Shown here: piece after piece, positions 8,029 to 34,462 of the stretch | Layout: each line of letters begins with the position of its first letter | Numbering within the stretch: position 1 is the stretch's first letter | DNA from: an uncultured Micavibrio sp. | Lineage (GTDB): Bacteria > Pseudomonadota > Alphaproteobacteria > Micavibrionales > Micavibrionaceae | Assembly (NCBI GenBank): GCA_964400125.1 | Contig: CAYNSR010000004.1 | Coordinates: 99,391 to 163,390 of the forward strand | Length of the DNA: 64,000 bases | Direction: 5' to 3' | The notes under the pieces: generated by a model | What the model saw: the letters and a program-made list of their open reading frames with translations, nothing else | Databases searched by the model: none | Told to the model about the DNA's origin: nothing | Made by a program: the position numbers and the translations under genes

Positions 8029-8089
8029 AAAACGACACCCCCTCCGCAGGCTTGCGAAGGGGGGAACATGCTCAGGGCCGGATACGATC

Positions 8090-8715: not shown

Positions 8716-8745
8716 GCGCATAACATATTGATTTTGTTGTATTCT

Positions 8746-9231: not shown

Positions 9232-9247
9232 GGTCTGATTTTTCTTT

Positions 9248-11119: not shown

Positions 11120-11366
11120 GTTTGTATCCGCAAGCTTTCGTTGTGAGCGATTGTGAGGTCGCCCTTCATTTATCCCGTTGCGAAATGCGTGCCAGCGGCC
11201 TATGTCCGGAAAATGGTGATATCCCGGACGGTTATTCCGGAACGGCGTTTTCGGGCGTCGCGTTTTGCCGGGGGATTTGCTGACCGGGCGGTTGATTTTG
11301 CCGGGTGCTTTTTACCGCGCTTCCTGTATGATTGGGACGATTCAAAACGCCACCGGATTTGCCGTA

Positions 11367-12308: not shown

Positions 12309-12440
12309 AAATCGGCGGAATGCCTTGTGTCTCTGTCGTTCACAGCGGCGGAGAAACGGGGTAGGCTTCCTTAACACTTTGGCAAGACTATCCCCGATAG
12401 AATGAAGTCGGGTTTACGCGTTAATCGGGATATCAACCAC

Positions 12441-12803
12441 ATGAGTAAAAAAGTCCTCGTTGTTGAAGACAACGAACTCAATATGAAGCTCTTTCATGAC
12501 CTGCTCGAGGCGCACGGCTACCTGATTGTGCAGACGAGAAACGGCAATGAGGTTCTCGATATTGCCCGTCGGGAAAATCCAGATCTGATTTTGATGGATA
12601 TCCAGTTGCCGGAAGTGTCCGGTCTCGATGTGACCCGCTGGCTGAAGGCCGACGAGGATCTGTGCAAAATCCCTGTCATCGCCGTCACGGCCTTTGCCAT
12701 GAAGGGTGATGAACAAAAGATCCGCGAAGGCGGGTGCGAAGATTACATTTCCAAACCCATATCCGTGACCGGGTTTATCGAAACCATTCAAAAATATCTA
12801 TAG
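12441..12803 (+). CDS. divK: Single-domain response regulator DivK
   Basis: Receiver-only protein ([21 protein letters not shown]) immediately upstream of pleD. Confidence 0.8.
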
Positions 12804-12818
12804 AGGGCATCCCCTTCC

Positions 12819-14246: not shown

Positions 14247-14260
14247 GATCATTCCCCAGT

Positions 14261-14287
14261 AAAAAAGGCTCCCTGCGGAGCCTTTTT
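14261..14287. terminator. Bidirectional rho-independent terminator between convergent pleD and rpmG
   Basis: AAAAAAGGCTCC-CTGC-GGAGCCTTTTT, a perfect stem flanked by an A-run and a T-run. Confidence 0.65.
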
Positions 14288-14307
14288 GAATGTGTGCTAG
14301 AAAGAAA

Positions 14308-14514
14308 CTAGTTCTTTTTCGATGGCGGCATTTTCTTCTCTTCGAAAACAACATGAGCGCCCTTTTTACCGGTTTCCGGATGGACGGCCCACGGATCGAA
14401 CTTGCGTTGCTGCAGCTTGTCCTGTGCTTTCGGATTGCGACGGGTGTAGTATCGGAACCCCGTGCCTGCCGAGCTCTCCATACGGACTTTGAGGGAAACG
14501 CCTTTTTTAGCCAT
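14308..14514 (-). CDS. rpmG: 50S ribosomal protein L33 (Cys-less form, unusually long)
   Basis: MAKKGVSLKVRMESSAGTGFRYYTRRNP...RKFDP matches the L33 core. It is 68 aa, with an internal HPETGKKGAH insertion and a C-terminal tail. Confidence 0.8.
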   Translation of the reverse strand: MAKKGVSLKVRMESSAGTGFRYYTRRNPKAQDKLQQRKFDPWAVHPETGKKGAHVVFEEKKMPPSKKN

Positions 14515-14576
14515 AATTATCTCTCCATTGAATTCAGAAGCGGCAATTTATGGATTTCGGGAAGAAAGTCAAGAAA

Positions 14577-16847: not shown

Positions 16848-16889
16848 TGATTTTTGGCCTTGCAGGCAAGGGCCGTTCGCGGGCCGGAA

Positions 16890-22249: not shown

Positions 22250-23463
22250 TTTACGGTGCCTGCCTTTTGCAGCTCTTCGATTTCAGGCCGGGACAGGCCG
22301 AGCAGGTCTTGGAGAATCTCGGCGGTATGTTGCCCTTCCATTGGTGGGGGCAGGCGATATTCAACGCTTGTGCCGGATAGTTTCAACGGGCTTCCGACCA
22401 GATCGATCGGGGTCGGGCTTTGCGGGTGAGGCATGCGGATTTGCATTTGTCTCGCATGAATCTGGTCGAGCGCGAAAACCTGATCCATGCGGTTGACTGG
22501 CCCGCAGGGTACGTCGATATCGCGCATCAGATCGACCAGTGGCACAATTTTGTGCTGCATCATGATTTCGGCAATCATCGGAACAATGATATCGCGGTTA
22601 TGCACCCGTGCGGTGTTGGTCGCAAAGCGGGGGTCGTTTGCCCATTCTTCATGGCCGAGAGATTTGACGAATCTCCGGAATTGTACGTCGTTGCCGATGG
22701 CGATCACGACCCAGCCATCGGCGACTTCGAACGCCTGATAGGGCACGATGGTTGAATGGGCGTTGCCGTAGCGCGGTGCGGGTTTCCCCGCAGTCAGGAA
22801 AAACTGCGCCAGATTGGTCAGGCTGGCCAGCGTACAATCCAGCAGCGCCACATCGACATGCTGTCCTTGGCCGGAGTTTTTGCGGGCGTGCAATGCCGCA
22901 AGGATGCCGATGGCGGCGTAAAGCCCGGTCATGACGTCGCTCAACGCTACACCGACCTTCATCGGCGCGCCGTCGGGTTCGCCGGTTACGGCCATCAAGC
23001 CCCCCATGGCCTGTACCAGCAGGTCATACCCGGGTTCGGTGGACAGGGGGCCGTTCTGGCCGAATCCCGTGATGGAGGCATAGATGATATGCGGATGTCT
23101 GGCATGGATGCTGTCGTAATCCAGCCCGTATTTCTTTAACCCCCCGGTTTTGAAATTTTCAATCAGGATATCCGATTTTTCCAGCAGCCGATGGACAAGG
23201 TCCTGCCCTTCCGGTGTAGTGATGTCGATGGCAATCGAGCGTTTGTTGCGGTTGCAGGACAGGTAATAGGCGCTTTCGCCTGTATCGTTGCCGTCAGCAT
23301 CTTTCAGAAAAGGGGGGCCCCATTTGCGCGTGTCGTCTCCGGCACCGGGGCGTTCGACCTTGATGATGTCGGCCCCCATGTCGCCAAGAATCTGGGTGCA
23401 GGCCGGACCGGCCAGAACCCGCGACAAATCCAGTACCCGTAATCCGCTTAATGCGCCGCTCAT
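22246..23463 (-). CDS. CoA-transferase family III protein (CaiB/BaiF-like)
   Basis: N-terminal LSGLRVLDLSRVLAGPACTQILGDMGADIIKVE signature. Confidence 0.85.
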   Translation of the reverse strand: MSGALSGLRVLDLSRVLAGPACTQILGDMGADIIKVERPGAGDDTRKWGPPFLKDADGNDTGESAYYLSCNRNKRSIAIDITTPEGQDLVHRLLEKSDILIENFKTGGLKKYGLDYDSIHARHPHIIYASITGFGQNGPLSTEPGYDLLVQAMGGLMAVTGEPDGAPMKVGVALSDVMTGLYAAIGILAALHARKNSGQGQHVDVALLDCTLASLTNLAQFFLTAGKPAPRYGNAHSTIVPYQAFEVADGWVVIAIGNDVQFRRFVKSLGHEEWANDPRFATNTARVHNRDIIVPMIAEIMMQHKIVPLVDLMRDIDVPCGPVNRMDQVFALDQIHARQMQIRMPHPQSPTPIDLVGSPLKLSGTSVEYRLPPPMEGQHTAEILQDLLGLSRPEIEELQKAGTVK

Positions 23464-23972
23464 CCGATCACCGTTGCAATGCTGGAAAACTTATAGAGTG
23501 CGACCAGAGCAATTCCAACCGCGAAACCGGGTCCGGCGGGAACTTCCAGCCGGGACAGGCTGAACGGCGCTTTTCTGGTAAATGTCTGTATCAGGGCGGT
23601 TCCGATCCCGTGGACCAGTCCGCCTGCAGCGCCAAGCGTCAGCGCCATCAGCACTCCTTCCGGCCCCAGCCACAGCCCCGCCGTCAGCATCAGCTTGACA
23701 TCTCCCAGCCCGAGCGTGTCTTGCTGGTAGATGTGGTTGGCGATAAAACGAATTCCATAAAGAATCCCTCCCCCGAGCATTGCCCCGAGTGCGATGTCGG
23801 GCAGACCCACAAAATGGAAGGTTGTTATGCTATGAAAAACAAGGGCGAGCAGGCCGAAGGGCAGGACCAGCCGATCCGGCAAAAGCCGCACACGCAGATC
23901 GATTATCGCCAATGCGATCAGAATTCCGGTGGCCGCGACGAGGCAGAGCAATGCAGGAATGAAGATGGTCAT
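23460..23972 (-). CDS. Short A24-family prepilin peptidase (CpaA/TadV-like, no methyltransferase domain)
   Basis: 170 aa polytopic protein with two Asp motifs, IIDLRVRLLPD and GLGDVKLM. Its stop overlaps the downstream CoA-transferase ATG (ATGA). Confidence 0.75.
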   Translation of the reverse strand: MTIFIPALLCLVAATGILIALAIIDLRVRLLPDRLVLPFGLLALVFHSITTFHFVGLPDIALGAMLGGGILYGIRFIANHIYQQDTLGLGDVKLMLTAGLWLGPEGVLMALTLGAAGGLVHGIGTALIQTFTRKAPFSLSRLEVPAGPGFAVGIALVALYKFSSIATVIG

Positions 23973-23994
23973 GCCCCAGTTGTGCCCCTTTTTG

Positions 23995-24008
23995 ATTGTA
24001 TATTCAAT
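23995..24008. promoter_or_regulatory. Imperfect 14-bp palindrome ATTGtATATtCAAT in the divergent peptidase/operon promoter region
   Basis: Read directly from the sequence. It lies in the 204-nt intergenic region between the divergent genes. Confidence 0.3.
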
Positions 24009-24176
24009 TGGGGTGTGGTGTTTTATACCAGCGGGATGTGTGGATAAAAGGCGTTTTTTGCCCCGAACGCCTTGTTCTGCCTTGCAAAGTGGTTTCAACT
24101 TTGAGGTCTGAGGCCTCCGCGCCTGCCTGTTCTGCAACCCAGTCCTTCTCGTGTGACCAGCCATTTCGAAAAATCA

Positions 24177-24551
24177 ATGACCGACGCCCCGAAAATCATG
24201 ATCGTTGAAGATAACGATTTCGTACGCATGCAGGTGGTCCGTTATCTGAAGGAGGCCGGATTTGAAACATGCGAGGCCAGAGACGGCAACGAGGCGTTGG
24301 AAGCTCTAGGTGTCGATGTGCGGGCGGCGATTGTGGATGTGCGCATGGAGCCGATGGGCGGGCTGGAATTTGTGCGCACCTTGCGGGGCAGGGAAATTGA
24401 TGTGCCGGTTGTTCTGATGACCGGAGACCAGAATACGGATCTGCTTGAGCAGGCCGCGAAGTGGGATGTAAGCGCTGTTTTGATAAAGCCGGTCATGAAG
24501 GATCGGCTGGTTCAGGCGGCGCAACGGGCGATTGCTCAGAGGCACCTGTAA
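24177..24551 (+). CDS. Single-domain response regulator (receiver only), first gene of the filament operon
   Basis: IVEDND, AIVDVRMEP (phospho-Asp) and LIKP. No output domain. Confidence 0.85.
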   Translation: MTDAPKIMIVEDNDFVRMQVVRYLKEAGFETCEARDGNEALEALGVDVRAAIVDVRMEPMGGLEFVRTLRGREIDVPVVLMTGDQNTDLLEQAAKWDVSAVLIKPVMKDRLVQAAQRAIAQRHL

Positions 24552-24590
24552 CAGGTTTGAAATGGGTTTGATGTGATGGGTTTGACGGGC

Positions 24591-26342
24591 ATGATCGATT
24601 CTGTAGAGCAAGGCGGTTTTCGCCGTCGCGCCATGCATGCCTTGCTGGCGGGCGTGATTTTACTGGCCGGTTGCGCTTCGGCGGATGTCCCGGATTCCAG
24701 AACGGTCAACGTTCCCGCGCCGACTCTGGCGGAAAAGCGGCGCGATGCCGTGAACGAGCGTCCTGACAGTGTGATGTATCTGCCGCTTGGCCGCGATGTT
24801 CTGTTGCCTGAAATCGCTACGGATGACGATTTGCCCACCGAGGAAGTCGGGCCGTTCGAACTGCGCGGCGAAACGCTGGCCGGGGCGTTGCAGTTGATCC
24901 TTGCCGATTACGATGTTCCGCTTTCTTTCGAAACGGACAAGGGACTGACCCGTCCCATTACCGTGGCCAATTTGCGCGGACCTTTGAACAAGGTCGTGCG
25001 GCACCTTTGCGGGCTGGCGGAGCTTTATTGCGCCTTTGAAGATGGAATTATGATTGTCAAGGATACGCAAACCTTCACCGTCAAGATCCCGCCGATCAGT
25101 CAGGATACGGGTTTTATGCAGAGCGTGGCGACGGGTTTGCAGGCGATCGTCGGGACGTCTCCCATCCTTGACACTTCGACGCGCACCATCATTTATGAAG
25201 CCTCGCAGCGAAACGCCGATATGGCGCTGCGTTATTTCCAGCGCATGCGCAGCAGTACGGCCCTGATCGTCTTTGAAACCTATATCTGGGAAGTTGCGCT
25301 GGACGGTGGAAATTCGACAGGCATCAACTGGCAGCTTCTTCAGTCGATCGGCAAGTTCAATACCGGAATTGAACTGACCGGATCAATCGGGGTCGGCGCG
25401 ACAGGCTCCTTCGCCAGCCCGGTCAGTATCGGTTTGCCTGTCACCGGAAGCATCAAAAATGCGGACGGCAGTTTCGGTGCGACGGAAGTATTTGATTTCC
25501 TGTCGCGCTTTGGTGCCGTGAAAACCATTTCCCAGCCGCAAATCACCGTTCTTTCGGGTTCGGAAGCGACGTTGCGCGCTGCGGATCGCACCAATTTTGT
25601 GTCCAATATATCGGAAACGCTGGATAACGGGCAGTCGAGTACCTCGGTCAGTACGGACTCTGTCGAAACCGGCTTTACCCTGACAATCGCCAGCGCTTGG
25701 GACAATGCAACCGTTTATGCCGATATCAGCATTTCTCTGACCGATGTGATTCAGATTGATGATTTTACCTTCTCCACAACCGGCGGGGGGTCTACGCAAA
25801 TCCAGTTGCCGCGTACGACCGAGCGCGAAGTCACGACGCAGGTTCGTATCCGTCCGGGCGATTCCCTGTTGCTGGCGGGGCTGGTGCGCGAGGACGACAA
25901 TTACCAGTCGACCGGACCGGGGCTTGACTCGCCCATCCTGCCGACCAGCCGCACGGCGGAAACATCGAATGTCGAGGTCGTTTTCCTGATGCGTCCGCGG
26001 GTTGTGGTCTACACGAATGCCGATGAGCAGACTCATCATCAGGGGGCGCGCACGCTGCCCGCAAAAACGCCTGCACACGCTCCGGCGGTGTTGCCGGATT
26101 CTGTTTCGCCCGTGCCGGAACCGGTTGAAGATATTCCGCCACAGGCAAGTCTGCCGCCAGTGCCCGTGACCCGCCCCGATGCAGCCGCGCCTGTATATTC
26201 CCAGCCATTGGCGGAGCCCGATTCCTCGGTGGAAATTGCGCCGCTGAATGAAAGCGTTCCGATGAATCTTGTGCCCGCAGAAATGCGTGCCGGAGATCAT
26301 GCCAGTACCCCATATGTCGCCAGACCAGTCCAGTTTCGCTAG
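24591..26342 (+). CDS. Outer-membrane secretin lipoprotein (T4b PilN/BfpB/TcpC-like) with Pro-rich C-terminal tail
   Basis: Lipobox LLAGC after an RRR n-region. Secretin C-domain AVKTISQPQITVLSGSEA...LPRTTEREVTTQVRIRPGDSLLLAGLV...EVVFLMRPRVV. Alternative starts at 24573, 24576 and 24633. Confidence 0.8.
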   Translation: MIDSVEQGGFRRRAMHALLAGVILLAGCASADVPDSRTVNVPAPTLAEKRRDAVNERPDSVMYLPLGRDVLLPEIATDDDLPTEEVGPFELRGETLAGALQLILADYDVPLSFETDKGLTRPITVANLRGPLNKVVRHLCGLAELYCAFEDGIMIVKDTQTFTVKIPPISQDTGFMQSVATGLQAIVGTSPILDTSTRTIIYEASQRNADMALRYFQRMRSSTALIVFETYIWEVALDGGNSTGINWQLLQSIGKFNTGIELTGSIGVGATGSFASPVSIGLPVTGSIKNADGSFGATEVFDFLSRFGAVKTISQPQITVLSGSEATLRAADRTNFVSNISETLDNGQSSTSVSTDSVETGFTLTIASAWDNATVYADISISLTDVIQIDDFTFSTTGGGSTQIQLPRTTEREVTTQVRIRPGDSLLLAGLVREDDNYQSTGPGLDSPILPTSRTAETSNVEVVFLMRPRVVVYTNADEQTHHQGARTLPAKTPAHAPAVLPDSVSPVPEPVEDIPPQASLPPVPVTRPDAAAPVYSQPLAEPDSSVEIAPLNESVPMNLVPAEMRAGDHASTPYVARPVQFR

Positions 26343-26354: not shown

Positions 26355-27995
26355 TTGACGCGTTCGTTTGAAAACATGAGGTTCGCAGGGGCGCCGGAAA
26401 CTGGCGGCGGTTTGTTTCACGCCGCGCGGCGGCATGTTTTTGCGGCGTTTCTCGGGGTGGTTATCAGTCTGGTGTCGCCGTCGGACTCTTTCGCACAATC
26501 TGCTTTTGACGATCCCGGCGCGCGTGCGGGTGGAAAGGCCGGGTCCGTTGGCGATCTGGTCCCGACGCAGCCGTCCATCGATGCCGGGAATATCAGTGTC
26601 GGTGCGACCGCGCAGGTTGTCGTTCTGTTCCGCAATGACAGCGGACGGGCCCTGACGACCGGGGCGATCAATCTTTATCCGTCATCAACGGTTTCGGCGG
26701 CGGTCGCGCTCAACGAATGTCAGGATCTGGACCCTCTTCCGCCCGGTGCGGTGTGTGCCGTTGGCCTGTCGATCAAGGGGCTGCAATCGGGGCGCTGGCG
26801 GGTGGAAATGTTGATGCGGCATACCGGGACCACACGTCTGGTTACGGCCACGTTGCAGGGCAATATCGAAGATACCGATGCCGGCACGGGCAATACCTTC
26901 AAGAGCGATATCGAGGCGATTCCTTCGACCATGGATTTCGAAAAGCTGACCACCAGCCAGCCTGCTGTTCAGCCGGTCGTGTTGCGGAATATCACATCGA
27001 CGCCGATCGATATCGCCGCGATTTACGTTGAATCGGCGGAACAGGCCGGGTTCAGCTTCCGTACTGATTGTGAAAAACTCACCCCCGGTCAGGCCTGTAT
27101 CGTGACCATGATTTGGTCGCCGATCCTCAAGGGGCAGGCCACTGGCGTTTTGGTGGTCGAACACAACGGTCCGACCAGTGTGGCCAGTATCCCGTTATCC
27201 GGCGAATTCACGCCGACCGGGGTCAGTGTCGCGCAGACTTTCCCCGAGGCGGTTCCGGGCAAGGGGCTTTTGGTGTCTTCGCAGGACCGGATCGATTTCG
27301 GCTCCAGCATCGAGACGGCTTCGGCCATTACGGTTTCACTGGTCAATGTCGGCGATGCCGCCCTGACGATCGAGGATGTCAGTCTGGCCGGGTCCGACAG
27401 CGGGATTACGCTCAGCAAGTCCGGTTGCGTTCCGGGCATGGTTCTGGACCCGATTCAGGCCTGTCCCCTGACCCTGACATGGTCGCCTGTGCGGCAGGGT
27501 GCCATTCTGGATGATGTCCAGATCGTCCATAGCGGCGCACGGGGTATTCTGGTTATGCCCGTACGCGGTACGGCCAATGCAGTAGTGAACAAGGACAACA
27601 AGGCCATCCGTCTGGCGGATTCCGGTGCGACGGTTTCTCTGGAACCTGGCACGACCGCCACCGATTCCATCGCCAGAGAAATGATTGTCCGGGACAAGGA
27701 TGTAGACCCGACCGGGGTTCTTGACGGTTTTGCCGTAACATCACATTCCAGCAAACGGGCCATTATCACCGGTCCCGGCGGCAGCAGGATTGTTTTTGAC
27801 GGGGAAGAGGCGGTCATTGGCGGGTTCTTATGGAATGTAAAAATCCGCTCCAGCGGAGTCGAGTTCCAGACCGGCGACCGGAAGGTTCTCTTGCTGTTTG
27901 ACCGTTCGTTGAATACGCCATCTTCATCTTCTGTTAACCGAACTTCATCACAATCAACTGGTACTGCTGGTGCTGCCGCATCGGCTGGCCAGTAG
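26355..27995 (+). CDS. Periplasmic protein with 3 tandem Ig-like (ASH/choice-of-anchor-D-like) repeats, a PilP/GspC-HR-like C-terminal domain and a Ser/Thr/Ala tail
   Basis: Signal peptide ...VFAAFLGVVISLVSPSDSFA/QS. Three repeats of about 95 aa share DFG..V.L.N.G...L.I....C..L.PG..C.V...WSP...G....L.V.H.G. The C-terminus reads LDGFAVTSHSSKRAIITGPGGSRIVFDGEEAVIGGFLWNVKI. TTG start (alternative ATG at 26376). Confidence 0.6.
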   Translation: MTRSFENMRFAGAPETGGGLFHAARRHVFAAFLGVVISLVSPSDSFAQSAFDDPGARAGGKAGSVGDLVPTQPSIDAGNISVGATAQVVVLFRNDSGRALTTGAINLYPSSTVSAAVALNECQDLDPLPPGAVCAVGLSIKGLQSGRWRVEMLMRHTGTTRLVTATLQGNIEDTDAGTGNTFKSDIEAIPSTMDFEKLTTSQPAVQPVVLRNITSTPIDIAAIYVESAEQAGFSFRTDCEKLTPGQACIVTMIWSPILKGQATGVLVVEHNGPTSVASIPLSGEFTPTGVSVAQTFPEAVPGKGLLVSSQDRIDFGSSIETASAITVSLVNVGDAALTIEDVSLAGSDSGITLSKSGCVPGMVLDPIQACPLTLTWSPVRQGAILDDVQIVHSGARGILVMPVRGTANAVVNKDNKAIRLADSGATVSLEPGTTATDSIAREMIVRDKDVDPTGVLDGFAVTSHSSKRAIITGPGGSRIVFDGEEAVIGGFLWNVKIRSSGVEFQTGDRKVLLLFDRSLNTPSSSSVNRTSSQSTGTAGAAASAGQ

Positions 27996-28039: not shown

Positions 28040-29869
28040 ATGAGCGACCAGGATTTTCCAGATGGACAGCATGAGGAGGCCAAGCCGGATCTGACGCCCG
28101 ATCGGCGTGGCGCGGTTGTACCTGATCGCCGGAAAAATCCAGCCGGAACCCCGCCCGACGGGATTGACCGCCGGGTTTGGGCCGACCGCCGCAAGGCCCG
28201 GTCGAATGAGGGGCGGGAGCGCTATCTGGACATGGTCCAGAAGGAACGCTCCGTACTCCTTGACCAGGGTGTTACCCGCTCCACGGAGCAGCTTTTAGAT
28301 CTTGCCGGGGTTGGCGGGACGTCCCACACGGAGGAAGAAGGCGTTCGTGATCGCGCAACCGGGGACCAGTTGCGCTCGATCCTCCCGGTCCAGTCATGGT
28401 TGCCGCTTTCAATTCACCTGATCGGTTTGAAAGACGGCATTTTGCGCATTGCCCCGTTGCATGAGCTGAATGACCGCCAGATCAAGGCGCTGTTGTCGAC
28501 ATCGGTGCGTTCCGGCCTTGTCGTTGACCGGGTCGAGGTCGAGGTCTGGGACCGTGCGGAATTGCTGTCGACGTTGCGTTCCGTGCATGATCTTTCGGCG
28601 GATCGCACGGAAAAAACCCTTGCCCAGTGGTTGGGGGATGTCGATAACGGTTTGCTCCTGAACCAGTTCCAGCGCGATATGATGGCCGAAGCGTTGCAGA
28701 TGCGGGCCTCTGATATTCATCTGTTGCAGGACAACAACCCCGAAACCCCAAACTGGATACGCTACCGGATCGATGGCGATGTTATCCCGATGCACCTGTT
28801 GCCTAACGATGCCATGGCGCGTTTGACGACGTTGCTCAAGCGCGATGCGGGGCTGAACTTCGGGGATCGTACGACGCCTAAGGACGGGCGTTTCTCCTTT
28901 ATCTGGCAGGGCCGGAACATCGACGTTCGTGTTGCTGCCGGGCCGCAGGCGCAAGACGGCGAAAAGCTGACGCTGCGTTTGCTTGACCGTGCCGCCCTCA
29001 AGGGATTTGACGAACTGTTCCGCCGTCACGAAGATGTCGGAAACTATCTTTCGCAGCTCCTGTCGCCGGAGATCAAGGGCGGGGGCGGGCTTATCCTGCT
29101 TTCCGGTCCGACGGGTTCGGGGAAAACGACGACGCTTTATGCCTGCGTCCAGCAGATCGACCGCCGCCGCCGCCATGTCCTGACCATTGAAGATCCAATC
29201 GAATATGAATTGCGTTATGCCACGCAATGGCAGGTGCGTTCTGGCATGCCGGGGGGGGAATTTTCTGACCTGATCCGCGCGGCCATGCGTCATGATCCGG
29301 ATTACATCATCATCGGGGAGATGCGGGACGGCGATACGGTCGAGACCGCCTTGCGCGCCGCAGAATCGGGACACACGGTGATTTCGACCATTCACGCCGA
29401 CACTGCGCTTCAGACATTCGAGCGCCTGCGGTCCCTGATGCCGGTCGCTCGGGAACGGTCATCGACATTCACGTTGGCGCAGCAGGTCAAGGCGATCATG
29501 AACCAGCGCCTGATTAAAACGCTGTGTCAGGGGTGTGCGCATAAATCGCGGGCGGCCGATGCCCTGGAGCCGCATGAATTGGCGATGCTGGGGATCGATC
29601 CGGATGCGGCAATCCGCCGTCGTAACACGACAGGCTGCGATCTTTGCAACCGGACGGGGATCATGGGGCGGACGCTGCTGCTCGATGCGGTCCTGATTCC
29701 GCTCGGGCCGTCGCAGCGCGATGCGGTCTATAATGCGATGATGCAAAACGTAAACCAGATTGTACACGAAGATGGCGTGATCGTTCATACGCGGCGGGAG
29801 GGACTGGTCGATCTGGTCCTGAGCGGCCTTGTCGATCCGAAATCTGCGTTGTCGAATCTTGAAGATTAA
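28040..29869 (+). CDS. GspE/PilB-family assembly ATPase with tetracysteine motif and an N-terminal DRR-repeat extension
   Basis: Walker A GPTGSGKTTT, Asp box LTIEDPIEYEL, Walker B DPDYIIIGEMRD, His box GHTVISTIHA and CQGC...CDLC. A T2SSE_N-like segment is present (LPLSIHLIGLKDGILRIAP). Confidence 0.9.
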   Translation: MSDQDFPDGQHEEAKPDLTPDRRGAVVPDRRKNPAGTPPDGIDRRVWADRRKARSNEGRERYLDMVQKERSVLLDQGVTRSTEQLLDLAGVGGTSHTEEEGVRDRATGDQLRSILPVQSWLPLSIHLIGLKDGILRIAPLHELNDRQIKALLSTSVRSGLVVDRVEVEVWDRAELLSTLRSVHDLSADRTEKTLAQWLGDVDNGLLLNQFQRDMMAEALQMRASDIHLLQDNNPETPNWIRYRIDGDVIPMHLLPNDAMARLTTLLKRDAGLNFGDRTTPKDGRFSFIWQGRNIDVRVAAGPQAQDGEKLTLRLLDRAALKGFDELFRRHEDVGNYLSQLLSPEIKGGGGLILLSGPTGSGKTTTLYACVQQIDRRRRHVLTIEDPIEYELRYATQWQVRSGMPGGEFSDLIRAAMRHDPDYIIIGEMRDGDTVETALRAAESGHTVISTIHADTALQTFERLRSLMPVARERSSTFTLAQQVKAIMNQRLIKTLCQGCAHKSRAADALEPHELAMLGIDPDAAIRRRNTTGCDLCNRTGIMGRTLLLDAVLIPLGPSQRDAVYNAMMQNVNQIVHEDGVIVHTRREGLVDLVLSGLVDPKSALSNLED

Positions 29870-29914: not shown

Positions 29915-31135
29915 GTGCAGCAGTGGATTGCCGAAATCGCGTATGAATCTTCCTCCGGCCCCCGCAGGGTGGTCGAGTCCTTTTACCTGCCCTCCGTCGA
30001 CGATGTCCGTATGGAAGTGGCAAAGAAGGGCGGCTACGCCCTGACCATCCGGCCCCACGAGCGTTCGCCCATTGAGCGTATCCTGTCGCGTTCGACCTGG
30101 TGGCAGGTGCAATTGTTGCGCGGAATCCAGTTTCGGTCGATATCCACCTCGCCCGGTGTGGCGTTGTGGCGGATCATTCAGGCTGAGACCAACCCGATGC
30201 GGCAGAATATTCTGGCCCCCGCGCGGGAGGCTCTGGCGCGCGGTCTTGGGGTGATTGACGCGCTGAAGGCGCTGAATGCCTTCGATCACAGCACGATTGC
30301 GATTCTGGCGGCCAGCGAGCGGTCGAACAAATTGCAAGAAGGTATCCCGCACGCGATTCATTCGATCACCCAGAAACGCCGGAACACGCGGGCGATCATC
30401 GGCACTATGTCATGGCTGGCTATTGACGTCGTTTCGATCGTTCAGTCGTTGTTCTGGGGGCGTGGCATGGTGCTGGAATGGTTCCATGACAATGCCCCGC
30501 CGGGCGCGGAGGAAAAAGAGAAATTCGACCGCGTGGTCGGAAATCTGGCGCTGACCTGGGATGTTTTGATTGCCACGGCCTTCGGGGCCGGGGCCTTTAT
30601 GGCGTGGGCGGTGTTTTCCTTCTGGATGAACAAAGGCAAGACGGATTGGCCGACGGCTCGCGTAGTACGGAAAATACCGATGTTCGGCGCGTATTTGCGC
30701 GATCTTGGCTTTGCCGATTCAATGATGGCGGCGGCGCGGATGATGCGCGGACTGGTCCCGATCAGCGATACGTTGCGCCAGTCTTCGGAAGCGACCAATG
30801 TGCCGGAGGTTTCGGCTTACTGGGAAGCTGCCAACAAGGAACTGGAAAACGGGGTCGGTCTCGGGGTGGCGCTGGATCGTTCTCCGCTGACCCGCAGCGA
30901 GCGGCTTGAACTGGCCAGCTTGTCTGATCTGGCGCAAGTTGCTACAGTATTGGAGTCTATTGCCGAAATGCGTGCATCCTCGGCAAAGACGAAGCACGCG
31001 CTGATCGTGTGGATTGCCTTCGGTCTCACCGGTGTCTACCTCGCCCTTGCCTTTGGTAGTGCCATTTACGCATTGACAGTTATGAATATGAGCATGGACG
31101 GCATGATGAGTGGTCTTATGGAAGGAGCACATTGA
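29915..31135 (+). CDS. Divergent GspF/PilC-like inner-membrane platform protein
   Basis: 406 aa with three hydrophobic segments and two internally similar helical regions (WWQVQLLRGIQF..., FADSMMAAARMMRGLVPISDTL). It sits directly after the ATPase. GTG start. Confidence 0.6.
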   Translation: MQQWIAEIAYESSSGPRRVVESFYLPSVDDVRMEVAKKGGYALTIRPHERSPIERILSRSTWWQVQLLRGIQFRSISTSPGVALWRIIQAETNPMRQNILAPAREALARGLGVIDALKALNAFDHSTIAILAASERSNKLQEGIPHAIHSITQKRRNTRAIIGTMSWLAIDVVSIVQSLFWGRGMVLEWFHDNAPPGAEEKEKFDRVVGNLALTWDVLIATAFGAGAFMAWAVFSFWMNKGKTDWPTARVVRKIPMFGAYLRDLGFADSMMAAARMMRGLVPISDTLRQSSEATNVPEVSAYWEAANKELENGVGLGVALDRSPLTRSERLELASLSDLAQVATVLESIAEMRASSAKTKHALIVWIAFGLTGVYLALAFGSAIYALTVMNMSMDGMMSGLMEGAH

Positions 31136-32142
31136 CTTTGGCTCTTTCCTTTAAAGACATGGGTCTGCCCGGGCGTAAAAAGAAAGGTGCCGAGGAGGAG
31201 CGTGCTGTCCGGGAGGGTGGTGCTGCTGCCGCGCCATCCAGACCCCGTCCCGGCATGGCGGATGTGATTGCCGGTGAGACGGCGAATTTTCAGGCCAATC
31301 TGACGCCTTATCTTCCTGCCGAGCTTATCGGTGGTTCCATTCCGCATATCCCGGGGACCGAGGATGAAGCCGTGTGGAACGCAGCGGCGCAGGCCTGCGC
31401 CACGGAAAAAGTGCATTACTGCTATTCCATCGAGGGTGGGCGTTGCTGGTATCTGGCGATTCCGTCCTCGGCGCTGGCATCGAACCCGGATAGCTGGTGC
31501 CCGCTTGCGGCGGCTTTGCCGGGGCATAGTGAATTCTGGGACAAGGAAACGGTTTACCTCTACGAGCAGGAAGGTGCCGCCGCCGCCCTGCGCTGGGACC
31601 CGGAAACGCACAGGATGCAGGTCTATATCGGCGCTTCGCGAACGCTATTGCCGCGAATCCAGAGCATGGATGCGAATTTCGTCACCATCAACCCGGATAT
31701 CGCCAATGTGATTCCTTGGCGGAACCGGGCTCTGCGCACCGAAAAATTGTCGCGGGCGGCGGCGCGAACCCTGTTGCTTGCGGGGCTGGGGCTGACGACG
31801 ATTATCCTGTGCATTCTTTTTGCACAATATGGCTGGACACTGATGCTGAAGCGGGACCTGCAAAAGGTGAGGGACGCGACGGACAAGGCCTCCAACGATC
31901 TGATGATTAATGCCTATAACGCCCTGCAAAGCGATACGATCAAGCACATGGTGAAAATTCAGGATCTGCTGGATACGTTGCGCACCATCGAGGGGACTTT
32001 GGTCAAATACGAAGTCGTCAAGGGCAAGACGACATGGGTGGCTCTGGTGCCGAAATCTTTCAGCGGCGGGGTCGGCGTGGTCAGGGGTGAAATTTCACCG
32101 GTGATCGAAAAAGACGGGCGGGTCAAGCTGACAGGGCATTAA
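31132..32142 (+). CDS. Orphan bitopic membrane protein in the GspL/BfpC/PilM-N position (cytoplasmic domain of about 205 aa, TM, periplasmic coiled-coil plus small domain)
   Basis: One TM segment (LLLAGLGLTTIILCILFAQYGW). TTG start 5 nt after GGAAGGAG, overlapping the previous stop (TTGA). No recognisable motif, so the call rests on topology and gene order. Confidence 0.4.
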   Translation: MTLALSFKDMGLPGRKKKGAEEERAVREGGAAAAPSRPRPGMADVIAGETANFQANLTPYLPAELIGGSIPHIPGTEDEAVWNAAAQACATEKVHYCYSIEGGRCWYLAIPSSALASNPDSWCPLAAALPGHSEFWDKETVYLYEQEGAAAALRWDPETHRMQVYIGASRTLLPRIQSMDANFVTINPDIANVIPWRNRALRTEKLSRAAARTLLLAGLGLTTIILCILFAQYGWTLMLKRDLQKVRDATDKASNDLMINAYNALQSDTIKHMVKIQDLLDTLRTIEGTLVKYEVVKGKTTWVALVPKSFSGGVGVVRGEISPVIEKDGRVKLTGH

Positions 32143-32268
32143 AAAGCGGAAAAATCTGCGCAGTTTGTTGATTTAGCTTAATTTTTATTGAATTTTTAGG
32201 GGCCTTTAAAGGATTGGATGATATGCTGGGAGTGCTGAAGCGCCTTTCGGGGAAAACGGGGTTGTATC

Positions 32269-32805
32269 GTGGACTTTAAATCTTTTGACATGAGATCTGT
32301 GCAGAAATATCTCCAGCCTCAGGCGGCCGAGGATCTCAATGTCTTTCTCGAGCGCCTGCCGCAAACGGCGGGCAACAGCATTCTGATCGCGGCGGCGATT
32401 GCGTGGACGGCGGCGGCGGCACTTGGCCTTTATACCTTTGTGCAAACCCAGCAGATGATCGAATTGCGCGCCAAACTGAAAGATACCGCAGCGCTTCAGC
32501 CACTGGTCCCAAAAATCACCGATGTTGCGGTGAAGGCGGACGAGGTAACGAAATTTGCCAAGGAGTTGTCGGAAATTTATCGCGGCCTCAGCATCAAGTC
32601 CCAAGGATCGACCATCCAGATTTCGGCGGCAGATACGGCGCGCTTTGCCGAATTCCGCGAGGCGATCGGGCATGTGCAAAACGGCGGATCGGGCTGGCGG
32701 GTGAGCGTCGAGCGTCTTTGCGTCGGCCGCGAATGCGACCGGGAAAAGCTGGCAGCATTACTGAAAATCAACAAGGTTTCCGTGGACAGGCCCGAAATGC
32801 AATAA
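32269..32805 (+). CDS. Orphan small bitopic membrane protein in the GspM/PilO position
   Basis: Short cytoplasmic N-terminus, a TM segment (ILIAAAIAWTAAAALGLYTFV), a coiled-coil and a small alpha/beta region. GTG start (alternative ATG at 32290). Confidence 0.35.
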   Translation: MDFKSFDMRSVQKYLQPQAAEDLNVFLERLPQTAGNSILIAAAIAWTAAAALGLYTFVQTQQMIELRAKLKDTAALQPLVPKITDVAVKADEVTKFAKELSEIYRGLSIKSQGSTIQISAADTARFAEFREAIGHVQNGGSGWRVSVERLCVGRECDREKLAALLKINKVSVDRPEMQ

Positions 32806-32879
32806 TAGGGTAGTTCGAGAATCGAAAAAAACGCATAATGGAACGCTTTTTAAAATCAGGCAATCGAAGGAGAATACGA

Positions 32880-33623
32880 ATGACGGTAGTAGTAAAGGAA
32901 AGATCGGGGGAACGGGGGAATGTGCTGTTCCTGATCCTGATCGCGGTGGCGCTGTTTGCGGCCCTGTCCTACGCGGTGACGCAATCGACGCGTTCCGGTT
33001 CTGGCGATGCCTCGAGCGAGACCAGTTTGATCAATTCCGCCCAGTTGGCCCAATATCCGGCCGGTGTCCGGACGGCGGTGGTGCGTATGGTGATTGGCGG
33101 AACTTCGGTTGACAACCTGATTTTCGATGCCCCTGCCAATTTTTCCGCGATTTCTGATTTGACCTATAACGTCTTCCACCCGACGGGCGGCGGCGCGGTT
33201 TTTCAGGTTGCGCCTAAGGATTTGCTGGCGCCGGGTGAGACAGGCGAATGGATTTATTCCTCCCGTTACCAGATTGACGGTATCGGCATCACTGATAGTG
33301 CGCAGCTTAGCGGCAATGAAGTGATCGCCTTCCTGCCGGGGGTTTCGCGGGATGTTTGCAGGAAACTCAACAGTGAGGTCGGCATTACCAGTTCGAACGC
33401 TGACGGGGTGCCGGTAACGACCGATCTTGGCGCTGATCCGCCCACCGCAGCACCAGTGAACACCGAAGGCATGACAGAGGCAGCGCCGGGCGCTCCCGGG
33501 ATCGGGGCCTATATCGCCACGATCGGCGGCGGACTGGCGGGCCAGCCCTTTGGATGCTTCAGGGTTGGTGCTGTGGGGCCGACGGCAACCTATGTTTACT
33601 ATCACGTTCTTGTCGAGCGTTAG
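32880..33623 (+). CDS. Pilin-like protein 1 with GspK/PilX-type leader (ERG|NVLFLILIAVALFAAL), no Glu5
   Basis: The leader MTVVVKERSGERG has a positive charge and is followed by a 20-aa hydrophobic helix. There is a strong SD (GAAGGAGA) before the ATG, and two Cys in the C-terminal half. 247 aa. Confidence 0.55.
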   Translation: MTVVVKERSGERGNVLFLILIAVALFAALSYAVTQSTRSGSGDASSETSLINSAQLAQYPAGVRTAVVRMVIGGTSVDNLIFDAPANFSAISDLTYNVFHPTGGGAVFQVAPKDLLAPGETGEWIYSSRYQIDGIGITDSAQLSGNEVIAFLPGVSRDVCRKLNSEVGITSSNADGVPVTTDLGADPPTAAPVNTEGMTEAAPGAPGIGAYIATIGGGLAGQPFGCFRVGAVGPTATYVYYHVLVER

Positions 33624-33656
33624 TTCCAGCACGCGCGATTGCCTGAAGAATAAGCG

Positions 33657-33690
33657 GAGGCCTGATGCGTGAAAGACCGCATCGGGCCTC
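33657..33690 (+). promoter_or_regulatory. 13-bp stem-loop between the two pilin-like genes (possible attenuator or processing site)
   Basis: GAGGCCTGATGCG-tgaaagac-CGCATCGGGCCTC has one G-U pair. No T-run follows it. Confidence 0.45.
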
Positions 33691-33718
33691 TTGCCCGGTG
33701 AAGAAAGATGATAAAGCG

Positions 33719-34462
33719 ATGTCTCTATATCGGCGGACAAACGAGCGCGGCAGCGCACTGGTCTATATCCTGATTGCCATTGCCTTGCTGGCGGCGTTGA
33801 CGGTGAGTTTTATGGAGCCGGCCAGTCAGCAGACGCAGAGCCAGAACAGTTTCAAGATGGTCTCGGAATTCGAAGCCCAGATCGACTTTATCCGCACGGC
33901 CGTTCAGGAATGCGTGATCCTGTACCAGATGGGGGATAACGGCATTGACAGCACCGCTGGTGGTGCTGTGACCCTGACCGAGGGTGCGAACAAGAAATTT
34001 CCGATTGATCCACGCTCCAGCTACCTGACCAATCCCTCGGCCAGTGCGGACCCGCTGGTGCGCGAGTTGCGTTGTCCGGGCAACCCCGGCGACAACGCCG
34101 ACCACCAGCCGGTTTTTTCAGGCAGTTCGGGGAAATTTCTGGGCCCGCCCCCTGCGATGTTCGAGGAATGGCGCTGGTATAACGGTCTCGATGGCATTTT
34201 CTTCTGGACGTATACGCTCAATACCGATGCGTTCATCCAGACATCCATGGACAAGCTGAATGAGAGTTTTGGCCTGTGCGAGGCCGATGTTGTCCGCGCG
34301 GGGGCTATCAGTATGGATATGGACAATGCTGGGGATGTGGTTTGCCCGGCGAATGCGACGTGTTTCCGTTTGTGGATGTCGGTAGATAATGAAACCGTCG
34401 CCGATCTGGAGGAATCACTCTACCCCGACCCCAGTCCCGCCGAGGCGGGGAATTGCCCGTGA
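33719..34462 (+). CDS. Pilin-like protein 2 with GspK/PilX-type leader (NERG|SALVYILIAIALLAAL), no Glu5, Cys-rich
   Basis: The N-terminal architecture matches the upstream gene and the predicted length is identical (247 aa). 7 Cys in the globular part. Confidence 0.55.
   Translation: MSLYRRTNERGSALVYILIAIALLAALTVSFMEPASQQTQSQNSFKMVSEFEAQIDFIRTAVQECVILYQMGDNGIDSTAGGAVTLTEGANKKFPIDPRSSYLTNPSASADPLVRELRCPGNPGDNADHQPVFSGSSGKFLGPPPAMFEEWRWYNGLDGIFFWTYTLNTDAFIQTSMDKLNESFGLCEADVVRAGAISMDMDNAGDVVCPANATCFRLWMSVDNETVADLEESLYPDPSPAEAGNCP

What the first reader, a model, noticed from the sequence alone, without database searches (positions are those of the whole stretch)
26355..27995. Secretin-adjacent periplasmic protein combining three Ig-like repeats with a PilP/GspC-HR-like C-terminal domain
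After a signal peptide the protein contains three repeats of about 95 aa. They share a conserved skeleton: DFG, then V.L.N.G with L.I, then C....L.PG..C.V, then WSP...G, then L.V.H.G. This skeleton resembles ASH/HYDIN-type or choice-of-anchor-D Ig-like domains. The protein ends in a segment (LDGFAVTSHSSKRAIITGPGGSRIVFDGEEAVIGGFLWNVKIRSSGVEF) whose spacing resembles the secretin-binding beta-sandwich of PilP and the GspC HR domain, followed by a Ser/Thr/Ala-rich tail. I am not aware of such a fusion in characterised systems. In the slot between secretin and ATPase, it would place a long Ig-domain spacer where a short PilP or GspC normally links the inner-membrane platform to the secretin.
Basis: inference. 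Interest (0 to 1): 0.62.

Follow-up and report, generated by a model that had tools for sequence, protein, structure and literature searches.

The report
Ig-armed secretin-docking protein of Micavibrio
In predatory Micavibrio-type bacteria, the gene between the outer-membrane pore and the motor of an unusual pilus/secretion machine encodes a soluble protein with three Ig-like beads and a tail domain folded like the known pore-docking domains (GspC/PilP); it probably replaces those missing parts, but relatives with up to about 40 beads show it is not just a fixed-length strut.

Summary
ORF 26355-27995 encodes a 546-aa protein with six parts:
- a cleavable signal peptide (AxA|Q);
- a conserved mature N-terminal peptide (Q-x-A-F-x-D-P);
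- three ASH/choice-of-anchor-D Ig-like repeats, each with a Cys pair;
- a disordered linker;
- a confidently modelled seven-strand beta domain (451-518);
- a Ser/Thr-rich tail.

The C-terminal domain matches no Pfam, NCBIfam or PDB sequence profile. However, all five Foldseek hits with probability >=0.6 belong to one fold class: GspC-HR (3OSS_C), PilP (2LC4, 2IVW) and DotF (7MUC). Profile-profile similarity to GspC-HR is weak but in register (P~0.002).

The gene is single-copy and confined to the Micavibrio order (237 of 320 genomes; none of 398 other alphaproteobacteria). It always lies between secretin and ATPase, and it is lost together with them. The genome has no PilP or GspC.

Most likely it is a soluble, HR-fold, secretin-docking component of a T4b/T2SS-like machine. 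The "spacer" idea is only partly supported: there is no membrane anchor, and sister-clade orthologues in the same slot reach 2404 and 4358 aa while the other machine parts keep their size. I class it as a new variant of a known kind.

The parts
26355..26495 (+). Sec signal peptide (residues 1-47; the TTG start has an AGAGG 10 nt upstream; an alternative ATG lies at codon 8). Predicted cleavage is SFA|Q.
   Evidence: Positive n-region, a 13-residue h-region, and an AxA|Q site that is conserved in all family members, including the giants. Inference from sequence only; no SignalP was run.
26496..26540 (+). Conserved mature N-terminal peptide Q-S-A-F-D-D-P (family consensus Q-[YFS]-(N)-A-F-x-D-P), followed by a flexible Gly-rich stretch.
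   Evidence: F51, D53 and P54 are invariant in 100 homologues. The motif is also kept in the 763-4358 aa relatives. pLDDT is below 50.
26541..26870 (+). Ig-like repeat 1 (ASH / choice-of-anchor D type), residues 63-172, with Cys122/Cys134.
   Evidence: AF2 pLDDT ~95. Repeat alignment. Mean pairwise identity across the order is 0.51.
26895..27209 (+). Ig-like repeat 2, residues 181-285, with Cys239/Cys248.
   Evidence: NF012200 best stretch is 178-272. HYDIN_VesB Ig matches 190-275. AF2 model.
27255..27578 (+). Ig-like repeat 3, residues 301-408, with Cys358/Cys370.
   Evidence: Pfam ASH best stretch is 308-394. AF2 model.
27579..27704 (+). Disordered, poorly conserved linker (residues 409-450).
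   Evidence: pLDDT is below 50 over residues 415-443. Mean pairwise identity is 0.19. In G029 the linker is about 100 aa long and Pro-rich.
27705..27908 (+). C-terminal domain (residues 451-518): a seven-strand beta-sandwich with the HR (GspC-HR / PilP / DotF) fold. It is the putative secretin-docking module.
   Evidence: AF2 pLDDT is ~90 in both models, and pTM is 0.71 for the domain alone. Foldseek results. hhalign results. The family has only 83 representatives among 1.84 billion proteins, and the domain is always C-terminal to ASH repeats.
27909..27995 (+). Ser/Thr/Ala-rich disordered tail (residues 519-546) plus the stop codon.
   Evidence: pLDDT ~35. Variable in relatives.
24573..26342 (+). 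Secretin, the presumed docking partner. It has a lipobox (LLAGC), a secretin domain at residues 310-478 and a Pro-rich C-terminal tail.
   Evidence: PF00263 E 1.2e-16. The best NCBIfam model is MshL, well below its cut-off. The closest solved structure is the T4b secretin BfpB, 9u5s, E 9.7e-13.
28040..29869 (+). GspE/PilB-type assembly ATPase, immediately downstream.
   Evidence: PF00437 E 6.4e-79. Adjacent to the target gene in 27 of 27 relatives.
29915..34462 (+). Rest of the operon: a GspF-like platform protein, two unannotated genes (336 and 178 aa) that first-stage notes read as bitopic, and two pilin-like genes.
   Evidence: None of these proteins shows HR-like similarity.
23460..24551 (.). 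Divergent A24 prepilin peptidase (- strand) and a receiver-only response regulator (+ strand) that open the locus.
   Evidence: PF01478 and PF00072. The arrangement is syntenic in relatives.

Best explanation
The gene encodes a soluble periplasmic component of a Micavibrionales-specific type IV filament machine (T4b/T2SS-like).

Shown (from sequence and predicted structure; cleavage itself is inferred): the exported protein is a string of three disulfide-capable Ig-like (ASH) domains with a cleavable signal peptide. It ends in a small beta-sandwich with the HR fold used by GspC, GspB/OutB, PilP and DotF to dock onto outer-membrane secretion complexes.

Inferred: this C-terminal domain docks on the periplasmic N-terminal region of the adjacent secretin, at roughly one copy per secretin subunit. 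The conserved mature N-terminal peptide plus Ig1 bind a second conserved machine part. That part is most likely the periplasmic domains of the 336-aa and 178-aa platform proteins. Together these contacts would supply the secretin-to-platform connection that GspC or PilP supply elsewhere, and which this operon and genome lack.

In Micavibrionales the arm has three Ig domains (about 12 nm) plus a flexible linker of about 40 residues. That length is about right to bridge the base of a T4b-type secretin and the inner-membrane platform. Because both ends are conserved and the middle varies in the sister clade, the arm works as a flexible tether rather than a rigid ruler.
For: 1. Fold.
- The C-terminal domain (CTD) is modelled with pLDDT ~90 as seven strands.
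- The only Foldseek PDB hits with probability >=0.6 are DotF2 and DotF1 (7muc_AF/Af; 0.97 and 0.87), GspC-HR in complex with GspD (3oss_C; 0.84, TMt 0.64, rmsd 2.6 A over 62 columns) and PilP (2lc4 0.80; 2ivw 0.63).
- PMC9239104 reports that accepted HR domains share only 10-17% identity and 1.7-2.8 A rmsd.

2. Sequence.
- hhalign of the CTD profile against a 30-sequence GspC-HR profile scores 20.0, P 0.0016-0.0025, with 58 columns in register.
- None of 150 column-shuffled templates reaches that score (mean 10.2, sd 2.1, max 18.2).
- No other operon protein and none of the three Ig repeats scores above 14.2 against this GspC-HR profile.

3. Need. The own genome has no PF04351 (PilP) or PF11356 (T2SSC) match, although these models hit 116 and 92 of 201 genomes of the phylum. 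Wang et al. 2011 already noted that GspC is missing.

4. Linkage.
- The gene is single-copy and present in 237 of 320 genomes and 74 of 86 genera of the order. None of 398 other alphaproteobacteria has it.
- The ATPase follows it directly in all 27 relatives examined, the secretin precedes it in 25 (one locus is cut by a contig end, one operon is split), and both giants and 8 sister-clade loci show the same order as far as each contig reaches.
- Of 17 good genomes without it, 14 lack the whole system. The other 3 have a clean deletion of exactly regulator-secretin-X-ATPase-platform.

5. Behaviour like a machine part.
- All folded domains are evenly conserved across the order (0.45-0.54), similar to the secretin, and there is no hypervariable tip.
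- Length is constrained to about 480-630 aa in the order.
- In M. aeruginosavorus ARL-13 the orthologue GMV_1936 has mRNA levels of 2.8 (attack phase) and 9.5 (attachment phase). The secretin has 1.8 and 5.7. This is roughly stoichiometric and far below the pilin-like GMV_1931 at 53.8.
Against: - No Foldseek hit has E below 0.2. The fold evidence rests on a predicted structure of a small domain.
- Pfam, NCBIfam and PDB sequence searches find nothing. hhalign probability is only 12-16%, and the comparison with PilP is null.
- There is no TM anchor or lipobox, unlike GspC, GspB, PilP and DotF.
- An N0 domain in the partner secretin was not demonstrable.
- No complex prediction or interaction test was possible.
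- Sister-clade orthologues of 763-4358 aa occupy the same slot. Their Ig repeats are recently duplicated (median 50%, up to 85% identity), and in L011 the other machine proteins keep their sizes. These proteins are far longer than any periplasm, which fits surface fibres better than periplasmic struts.
- Choice-of-anchor-D domains are typical of surface proteins.
Confidence: 0.5

Rival explanations
1. Moored, exported fibre (mooring-line model). The HR-fold C-terminal domain stays docked on the periplasmic face of the secretin. The conserved N-terminal peptide hooks onto the tip of the short filament built from the two pilin-like proteins and is carried out through the pore. The Ig chain is thus paid out as a tethered adhesin or reach-extender towards prey, and its length (3 to about 40 Ig) sets the reach.
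For: - Both ends are conserved and the middle varies in length, with tandemly expanding repeats in the same genomic slot.
- The other machine parts do not scale with the arm.
- In T4b pili, operon-encoded secreted proteins (TcpF, CofJ) use a flexible mature N-terminal peptide with a critical aromatic residue to hook the minor-pilin tip (PMC9565799). Here the mature N-terminus carries an invariant Phe at position 4 followed by a flexible stretch.
- The closest solved secretin is the T4b secretin BfpB.
- Choice-of-anchor-D domains are usually extracellular.
- In ARL-13 the operon is more highly expressed during attachment to prey.
Against: - mRNA is roughly stoichiometric with the secretin, not one chain per 12-17-mer pore.
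- A chain running through the lumen would compete with the filament and hold the gate open.
- The three-Ig version (about 12 nm plus linker) would barely clear a secretin about 11 nm tall (without its N0 domain) together with the outer membrane.
- Conservation is uniform across the Ig domains, with no variable tip.
- There is no direct evidence of export or of binding to the pilin-like proteins.
Confidence: 0.2
2. Dedicated cargo. The protein is a substrate secreted by this T2SS/T4b-like machine (an adhesin or prey-binding factor). It is released or re-bound at the surface, and the C-terminal beta domain acts as a secretion or retention signal rather than as a structural docking module.
For: - There are in-operon cargo precedents: TcpF and CofJ, and PulA and SslE (from memory).
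- The architecture is Ig-repeat and choice-of-anchor-D.
- Giant variants exist.
- Omnitrophota giant Ig-rich proteins sit next to T2SS-like loci (10.1101/2023.11.21.568195).
Against: - Expression is low and machine-like.
- The gene sits strictly between secretin and ATPase across an entire order and is deleted with the core block.
- The HR fold is known only as a periplasmic docking module.
- No catalytic or lectin domain is present.
- Sequence conservation equals that of the secretin.
Confidence: 0.15
3. The C-terminal domain is a generic small beta-sandwich that only resembles HR domains by chance. The protein is then a periplasmic accessory with another role (for example a PapD/MSP-like chaperone for the Glu5-less pilin-like proteins, or a peptidoglycan/envelope spacer) and does not bind the secretin.
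For: - Foldseek E-values are all above 0.2.
- No HMM match was found.
- ASH domains belong to the MSP/PapD-like superfamily, with weak PapD-like Pfam hits in relatives.
Against: - All five high-probability fold hits come from one docking-domain class among 350,542 chains.
- The hhalign signal is in register and is unique to this domain within the operon.
- Co-occurrence with the orthologous secretin is strict.
Confidence: 0.1

Closest known systems
GspC (T2SS), homology-region (HR) domain; structure 3OSS chain C bound to GspD N0-N1
   Same: - A small beta-sandwich of about 65 residues. It gives the best geometric match to the predicted C-terminal domain (TMt 0.64, rmsd 2.6 A, 13% identity).
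- The profile-profile alignment is weak but in register.
- The gene lies next to the secretin gene in a type IV filament operon.
   Different: - GspC has an N-terminal TM anchor and usually a C-terminal PDZ or coiled-coil. Its HR domain is in the middle of the protein.
- The Micavibrio protein has a cleavable signal peptide, three Ig domains before the HR-like domain, and no PF11356 match.
PilP (T4aP alignment lipoprotein; structures 2LC4, 2IVW)
   Same: - A C-terminal HR-fold domain reached through a long disordered linker (Foldseek probability 0.80 and 0.63).
- An N-terminal segment that binds the platform (PilN/PilO) while the C-domain binds secretin N0 (from established literature).
   Different: - PilP is a roughly 170-aa inner-membrane lipoprotein without Ig domains.
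- There is no sequence-profile similarity (hhalign P 0.095; PF04351 absent).
GspB/OutB scaffolding protein of Dickeya (PMC9239104)
   Same: The layout is linker, then HR domain, then a short C-terminal extension. The HR domain binds secretin N0 and assists secretin targeting. It shows that HR domains occur on more than one kind of secretin partner.
   Different: OutB is anchored in the inner membrane by a TM segment, and its C-terminal extension binds peptidoglycan. It has no Ig repeats.
DotF of the Legionella Dot/Icm T4SS (7MUC chains AF/Af)
   Same: It gives the top Foldseek probabilities (0.97 and 0.87). It is a C-terminal HR-like sandwich that docks on outer-membrane-cap and periplasmic-ring proteins.
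   Different: It belongs to a different secretion system, is a bitopic inner-membrane protein, and docks on DotH/Dis3 rather than on a secretin.
TcpF / CofJ, operon-encoded proteins secreted by T4b pili (PMC9565799)
   Same: They are encoded inside a T4b-type operon and are Sec-exported. A flexible mature N-terminal peptide with a key aromatic residue serves as the handle.
   Different: They have no HR-like domain and no Ig-repeat arm, and they are released from the cell. The resemblance is by analogy only and was not tested.
PorM/GldM of the T9SS (from memory)
   Same: A chain of Ig-like periplasmic domains serves as a trans-periplasmic arm reaching an outer-membrane-associated ring.
   Different: It is a TM-anchored dimer from an unrelated system, without an HR domain. 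This comparison was not tested here.

Membership tests
HR-fold docking domains (GspC-HR / PilP C-domain / GspB / DotF) | Small 6-7-strand beta-sandwich superposable on 3OSS_C / 2LC4 | tested here: met
   The AF2 domain model has pLDDT ~90 and pTM 0.71. Foldseek gives 3oss_C probability 0.84, TMt 0.64, rmsd 2.6 A; 2lc4 0.80; 2ivw 0.63; DotF 0.97 and 0.87. No other hit has probability >=0.6. Caveats: E-values are 0.2-1.2, and the structure is predicted, not solved.
HR-fold docking domains (GspC-HR / PilP C-domain / GspB / DotF) | Sequence membership in Pfam PilP (PF04351) or T2SSC (PF11356) | tested here: not met
   No Pfam or NCBIfam hit even at E 10. hhalign against GspC-HR gives P 0.0016-0.0025 and probability 12-16%. 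Against PilP it gives P 0.095. The positive control, GspC-HR against PilP, gives P 4.7e-6 and probability 86%.
HR-fold docking domains (GspC-HR / PilP C-domain / GspB / DotF) | Binds the N0 domain of the cognate secretin | not testable with these tools
   No multimer prediction was available. An N0 domain in the secretin was not detectable by Pfam or by hhalign (P 0.029).
HR-fold docking domains (GspC-HR / PilP C-domain / GspB / DotF) | Anchored to the inner membrane (TM helix or lipobox) | tested here: not met
   The hydrophobic segment is 13 residues long and is followed by a family-wide conserved AxA|Q signal-peptidase I site. There is no lipobox Cys.
HR-fold docking domains (GspC-HR / PilP C-domain / GspB / DotF) | Encoded with, and co-inherited with, a secretin of a type IV filament or secretion operon | tested here: met
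   The ATPase directly follows X in 27 of 27 relatives and the secretin directly precedes it in 25; the giants and the sister-clade loci keep the same order as far as each contig reaches. The gene is co-deleted with the secretin in G664, G655 and G033, and absent wherever the whole system is absent.
ASH / choice-of-anchor D Ig-like domains | Profile match above the curated cut-off | tested here: met
   PF15780 scores 54 bits against 27. PF22544 scores 28.9 against 25.5. NF012200 scores 58 against 45.
ASH / choice-of-anchor D Ig-like domains | Ig-like beta-sandwich fold similar to Hydin / CEP192 SPD-2 domains | tested here: met
   There are three sandwiches with pLDDT above 90. Foldseek gives 7sqc and 9ijj central-pair proteins at E 1e-16 to 1e-12, CEP192 7ptb at E 2.8e-9 and VesC 6bqm at E 2e-7.
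T4b-pilus secreted proteins (TcpF / CofJ type) | Flexible mature N-terminal peptide with a critical aromatic residue that binds the minor-pilin tip | tested here: inconclusive
   A conserved Q-x-(N)-A-F-x-D-P motif sits at the predicted mature N-terminus and has low pLDDT. TcpF and CofJ signals share no sequence motif with each other, so only an interaction test could decide.
T4b-pilus secreted proteins (TcpF / CofJ type) | Released to the medium in a pilus-dependent way | not testable with these tools
   No localisation data exist. The mRNA level is machine-like.

The most novel reading that the evidence does not exclude
The HR-fold domain is a mooring. It fixes the C-terminus of a length-variable Ig chain to the periplasmic face of the secretin. 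The conserved N-terminal peptide rides the tip of a short Glu5-less type IV filament out through the pore. The machine would then deploy a tethered, retractable protein line (3 Ig in Micavibrio, up to about 40 Ig in a sister clade) to contact prey. No type IV filament system is known to work this way.
Probability: 0.17. Interest if true: 0.85.

Novelty: new variant of a known kind. Interest (0 to 1): 0.55.

Why it matters
- Micavibrio is an obligate epibiotic predator whose attachment and feeding apparatus is unknown. Its genome paper assumed a "functional T2SS" despite missing GspC, G, H and K.
- This protein is the best candidate for the missing secretin-coupling part of that machine. The machine is confined to the predatory order, and in M. 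aeruginosavorus ARL-13 the operon is up-regulated during attachment to prey.
- For the type IV filament field, it shows the HR docking fold on a soluble, Ig-armed carrier whose arm length varies more than tenfold in one conserved genomic slot. That sets up a clean natural experiment on whether secretin-platform coupling needs a defined length, or whether HR domains can serve as moorings for exported fibres.
- The protein is experimentally tractable: it is small, soluble and modular.

Tried and rejected
- Sequence-profile searches of the C-terminal region, alone or with its linker, found nothing: Pfam and NCBIfam at E 10 and a profile search of PDB sequences (only chance hits at E >=0.4).
- hhalign against PilP gave no signal.
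- A canonical N0 domain in the secretin was sought with Pfam at E 10 and with hhalign against a 9-sequence GspD N0 profile (P 0.029 over 22 columns). The result is inconclusive.
- I could not place the genomes with giant orthologues taxonomically: the genome search does not hold them and a single-sequence scan of genome contigs found nothing. An alignment scan then found 8 sister-clade MAGs, labelled Rhodospirillaceae, Micavibrio sp. or Alphaproteobacteria.
- A Tat signal was considered because of "ARRHVF". I rejected it because the twin arginine is not conserved in the family consensus.
- A T9SS-type C-terminal sorting domain was considered because choice-of-anchor proteins carry sorting tails. 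I rejected it because no T9SS CTD appears among the top 50 Foldseek hits listed and the domain is followed by a further tail of about 30 residues.
- I asked whether the 178-aa or 336-aa operon proteins hide an HR domain. They show no signal.
- Model coordinates are not exposed to the Python box, so I could not do my own superposition or interface-conservation mapping.
Full report
**Locus and organism**

The window comes from a Micavibrio-type alphaproteobacterium. The closest named homologues of the target are from Micavibrio aeruginosavorus and "Micavibrio sp." MAGs.

The target ORF (26355-27995, +, 546 aa) lies in a tight operon:
- a divergent A24 prepilin peptidase;
- a receiver-only response regulator;
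- a secretin (24573-26342);
- the target;
- a GspE/PilB-type ATPase (28040-29869);
- a GspF-like platform protein;
- two unannotated proteins of 336 and 178 aa, described as bitopic in first-stage notes;
- two pilin-like proteins;
- a convergent hybrid histidine kinase.

The closest solved secretin is the type IVb secretin BfpB (9u5s, E 9.7e-13). The best NCBIfam model is MshL, far below its cut-off. The genome carries two other secretin systems, one Tad-like and one PilQ/PilT-like.

The three repeats are supported by several lines of evidence:
- Pfam ASH scores 54 bits against a cut-off of 27. HYDIN/VesB-like Ig scores 28.9 against 25.5. NCBIfam choice-of-anchor D scores 58 against 45.
- The repeats are related to each other (r1-r2 E 4.5e-5; r2-r3 E 2e-7).
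- AlphaFold2 with 100 homologues gives mean pLDDT 80 and pTM 0.34, which indicates beads on a string. The model shows:
  - a helix at 20-40;
  - three sandwiches at 63-172, 181-285 and 301-408 (pLDDT above 90);
  - a disordered linker (415-443);
  - a C-terminal seven-strand domain (about 452-517, pLDDT ~90);
  - a disordered tail.
- Foldseek matches the Ig part to Hydin-type ciliary central-pair proteins (E 6.6e-17), the CEP192 SPD-2 domain and VesC.

**N-terminus**

The hydrophobic segment has only 13 residues. It is followed by an AxA|Q site that is conserved in every family member inspected, including the giants. The mature protein then begins with Q-[YFS]-(N)-A-F-x-D-P, and F51, D53 and P54 are invariant in 100 homologues. 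The protein is therefore a cleaved, soluble exported protein. It is not a bitopic protein or a lipoprotein like GspC, GspB, PilP or DotF.

**The C-terminal domain (CTD)**

By sequence it is an orphan. There is no Pfam or NCBIfam hit at E 10, and only chance-level PDB sequence hits (E >=0.4).

An exhaustive HMMER search of 1.84 billion representative proteins finds just 83 members. In all of them the domain sits near the C-terminus, behind ASH repeats.

A separate AF2 model of residues 436-522 has pLDDT 83.8 and pTM 0.71. Against the PDB, Foldseek gives no significant E-value (best 0.22). However, all five hits with probability >=0.6 belong to one fold class:
- 7muc_AF and 7muc_Af (0.97 and 0.87);
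- 3oss_C, the GspC HR domain bound to GspD (0.84; TMt 0.64; rmsd 2.6 A over 62 columns; 13% identity);
- PilP 2lc4 (0.80) and 2ivw (0.63).

I also built profiles from 30 GspC and 30 PilP sequences taken from genomes of the phylum:
- hhalign of the CTD against GspC-HR gives score 20.0 and P 0.0016-0.0025, with 58 columns in register.
- None of 150 column-shuffled controls reaches this score (mean 10.2, sd 2.1, max 18.2). The reversed template scores 11.3.
- Against PilP there is no signal (P 0.095). The positive control, GspC-HR against PilP, gives P 4.7e-6.
- Against the same GspC-HR profile, the three Ig repeats and the four downstream operon proteins all score 14.2 or less.

My conclusion is that the CTD has the HR fold at the level of a confident prediction. 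Evidence for sequence homology is weak. It is not a member of the Pfam PilP or T2SSC families.

**Distribution and linkage**

- The CTD is single-copy. It is present in 33 of 41 close relatives and in 237 of 320 genomes of the order (74 of 86 genera), in open frames of about 490-630 aa.
- In an even sample of 401 alphaproteobacteria, only the three genomes of this order have it.
- In 27 regions fetched from across the order, the ATPase always directly follows the gene. The secretin directly precedes it in 25. The two exceptions are one contig end and one split operon whose orthologous secretin lies elsewhere in the genome.
- Of 17 high-quality genomes lacking the CTD, 14 also lack the system-specific 336-aa protein.
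- The other three (G664, G655, G033) retain peptidase, the 336-aa and 178-aa genes and a pilin-like gene. They have lost exactly the regulator-secretin-X-ATPase-platform block; in the two tested (G664, G033) only paralogous secretins remain.
- I therefore never saw the protein without its secretin, or the secretin without it.
- The own genome has no PilP or T2SSC match. Wang et al. 2011 had already noted that GspC, G, H and K are missing from the Micavibrio "T2SS".

**Behaviour like a machine part**

- Across the order, all folded domains are conserved to a similar degree: Ig1 0.51, Ig2 0.45, Ig3 0.54 and CTD 0.48. Linkers are at 0.19-0.25. This resembles the secretin (43-67% identity to the window).
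- In M. aeruginosavorus ARL-13 the orthologue is GMV_1936 (1632 nt, between secretin GMV_1937 and ATPase GMV_1935). Expression indices from Additional file 4 of PMC3189940 are:

| Gene | Attack phase | Attachment phase |
|---|---|---|
| GMV_1936 (orthologue of the target) | 2.8 | 9.5 |
| GMV_1937 (secretin) | 1.8 | 5.7 |
| GMV_1935 (ATPase) | 0.8 | 3.2 |
| GMV_1931 (pilin-like) | 9.9 | 53.8 |

- The gene is thus expressed, rises during attachment to prey, and is roughly stoichiometric with the secretin.

**The complication: giant orthologues**

Among the 83 family representatives are proteins of 763, 968, 1022, 2121, 2404 and 4358 aa. They have the same signal peptide, the same N-terminal motif and the same CTD, but many more ASH repeats.

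- The 2404-aa and 4358-aa proteins lie in exactly the same slot, directly after the secretin and before the ATPase.
- In the 2404-aa locus the other parts have the usual sizes: secretin 577 aa, ATPase 618, platform 404, then 314 and 181 aa.
- Their repeats are about 50% identical on median and up to 85% identical, which indicates recent tandem expansion.
- Eight further sister-clade MAG loci show the same synteny, with the protein ranging from 519 to at least 1689 aa.

Forty Ig domains (about 150 nm) cannot be a taut periplasmic strut. The general design is two conserved ends with an expandable middle, which describes a tether.

**Interpretation**

Best reading (confidence 0.5): the protein is a soluble HR-fold secretin-docking component. 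In Micavibrionales it supplies the secretin-platform coupling otherwise provided by GspC or PilP. Its N-terminal peptide and Ig1 would bind a second conserved machine part. The three-Ig arm (about 12 nm) plus a flexible linker fits the gap below a T4b secretin, which is about 11 nm tall without its N0 domain (PMC12114550).

Rivals:
- Mooring-line model (0.2). The N-terminal peptide rides the filament tip out of the cell, by analogy with the T4b secretion signal of TcpF and CofJ (PMC9565799).
- Plain cargo (0.15).
- Chance fold resemblance with a different periplasmic role (0.1).

Expression stoichiometry, uniform conservation and constrained length within the order favour a structural part. 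The giants and the usual extracellular habitat of choice-of-anchor-D domains favour a surface fibre.

**Novelty**

I found no paper describing an ASH or choice-of-anchor-D protein coupled to a secretin. That is consistent with my result but is not independent evidence. Other notes report GspM~Ig~HR fusions in planctomycetes (e1-2706564, e1-3157516); I did not check these.

I classify the protein as a new variant of a known kind: an HR-fold docking domain on a novel, unanchored, length-variable Ig carrier, within a lineage-specific T4b/T2SS-like machine.

Noticed in passing
L105 (G029:C1) 1641-5597: In one genome of the same order, the orthologous secretin is 1318 aa long. After the secretin domain it carries about 830 residues of Glu/Lys/Gln/Leu-rich, coiled-coil-like sequence where the window's secretin has a roughly 105-aa Pro-rich tail. 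T4b secretin C-termini are reported to be extracellular (title of PMC4453517), so this could be a surface-displayed rod.
   Followed up: no
L114 (G664), L116 (G655), L115 (G033): Three genomes keep the peptidase, the 336-aa and 178-aa genes and a pilin-like gene. They have cleanly lost regulator, secretin, the Ig-arm protein, ATPase and platform. The result is a motor-less, pore-less remnant of the machine.
   Followed up: partly
genome contigs C25:~6780-19014 and C1:~215397-225014: The genome has two further secretin systems. One is a Tad/Cpa-like cluster. The other is a PilQ-type secretin next to two PilT-like ATPases and a second prepilin peptidase.
   Followed up: partly
window 32838-33623 (orthologue GMV_1931 in ARL-13): The first pilin-like gene is by far the most expressed gene of the operon in published RNA-seq (9.9 in attack phase, 53.8 in attachment phase). 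This is consistent with it being the major subunit.
   Followed up: no
L094 (G016:C15) ~7068-8511: In this genome the orthologue is split. The CTD lies in a 252-aa open frame and the Ig part is hit separately. This is either a frameshift/pseudogene or an assembly error.
   Followed up: no
L085 (G012:C33) and G012:C20:79850-81259: The operon is split in this genome. The Ig-arm gene, ATPase, platform and 336-aa gene stay together, while the orthologous secretin (61% identity) lies on another contig.
   Followed up: partly
window 26580-26768 (residues 76-138): Ig repeat 1 gives a sub-threshold match to NCBIfam NF033207, 'midcut-by-XrtH' (30.4 bits against a cut-off of 45). This probably reflects only a shared Ig-like fold.
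   Followed up: no
window 24573-25100 (secretin residues ~60-120): The secretin N-terminal region has a very conserved stretch (ERPDSVMYLPLG...VGPFELRGETLAGALQLILADYDVPLSFE). It matches no Pfam domain and could be the docking surface for the C-terminal domain.
   Followed up: partly
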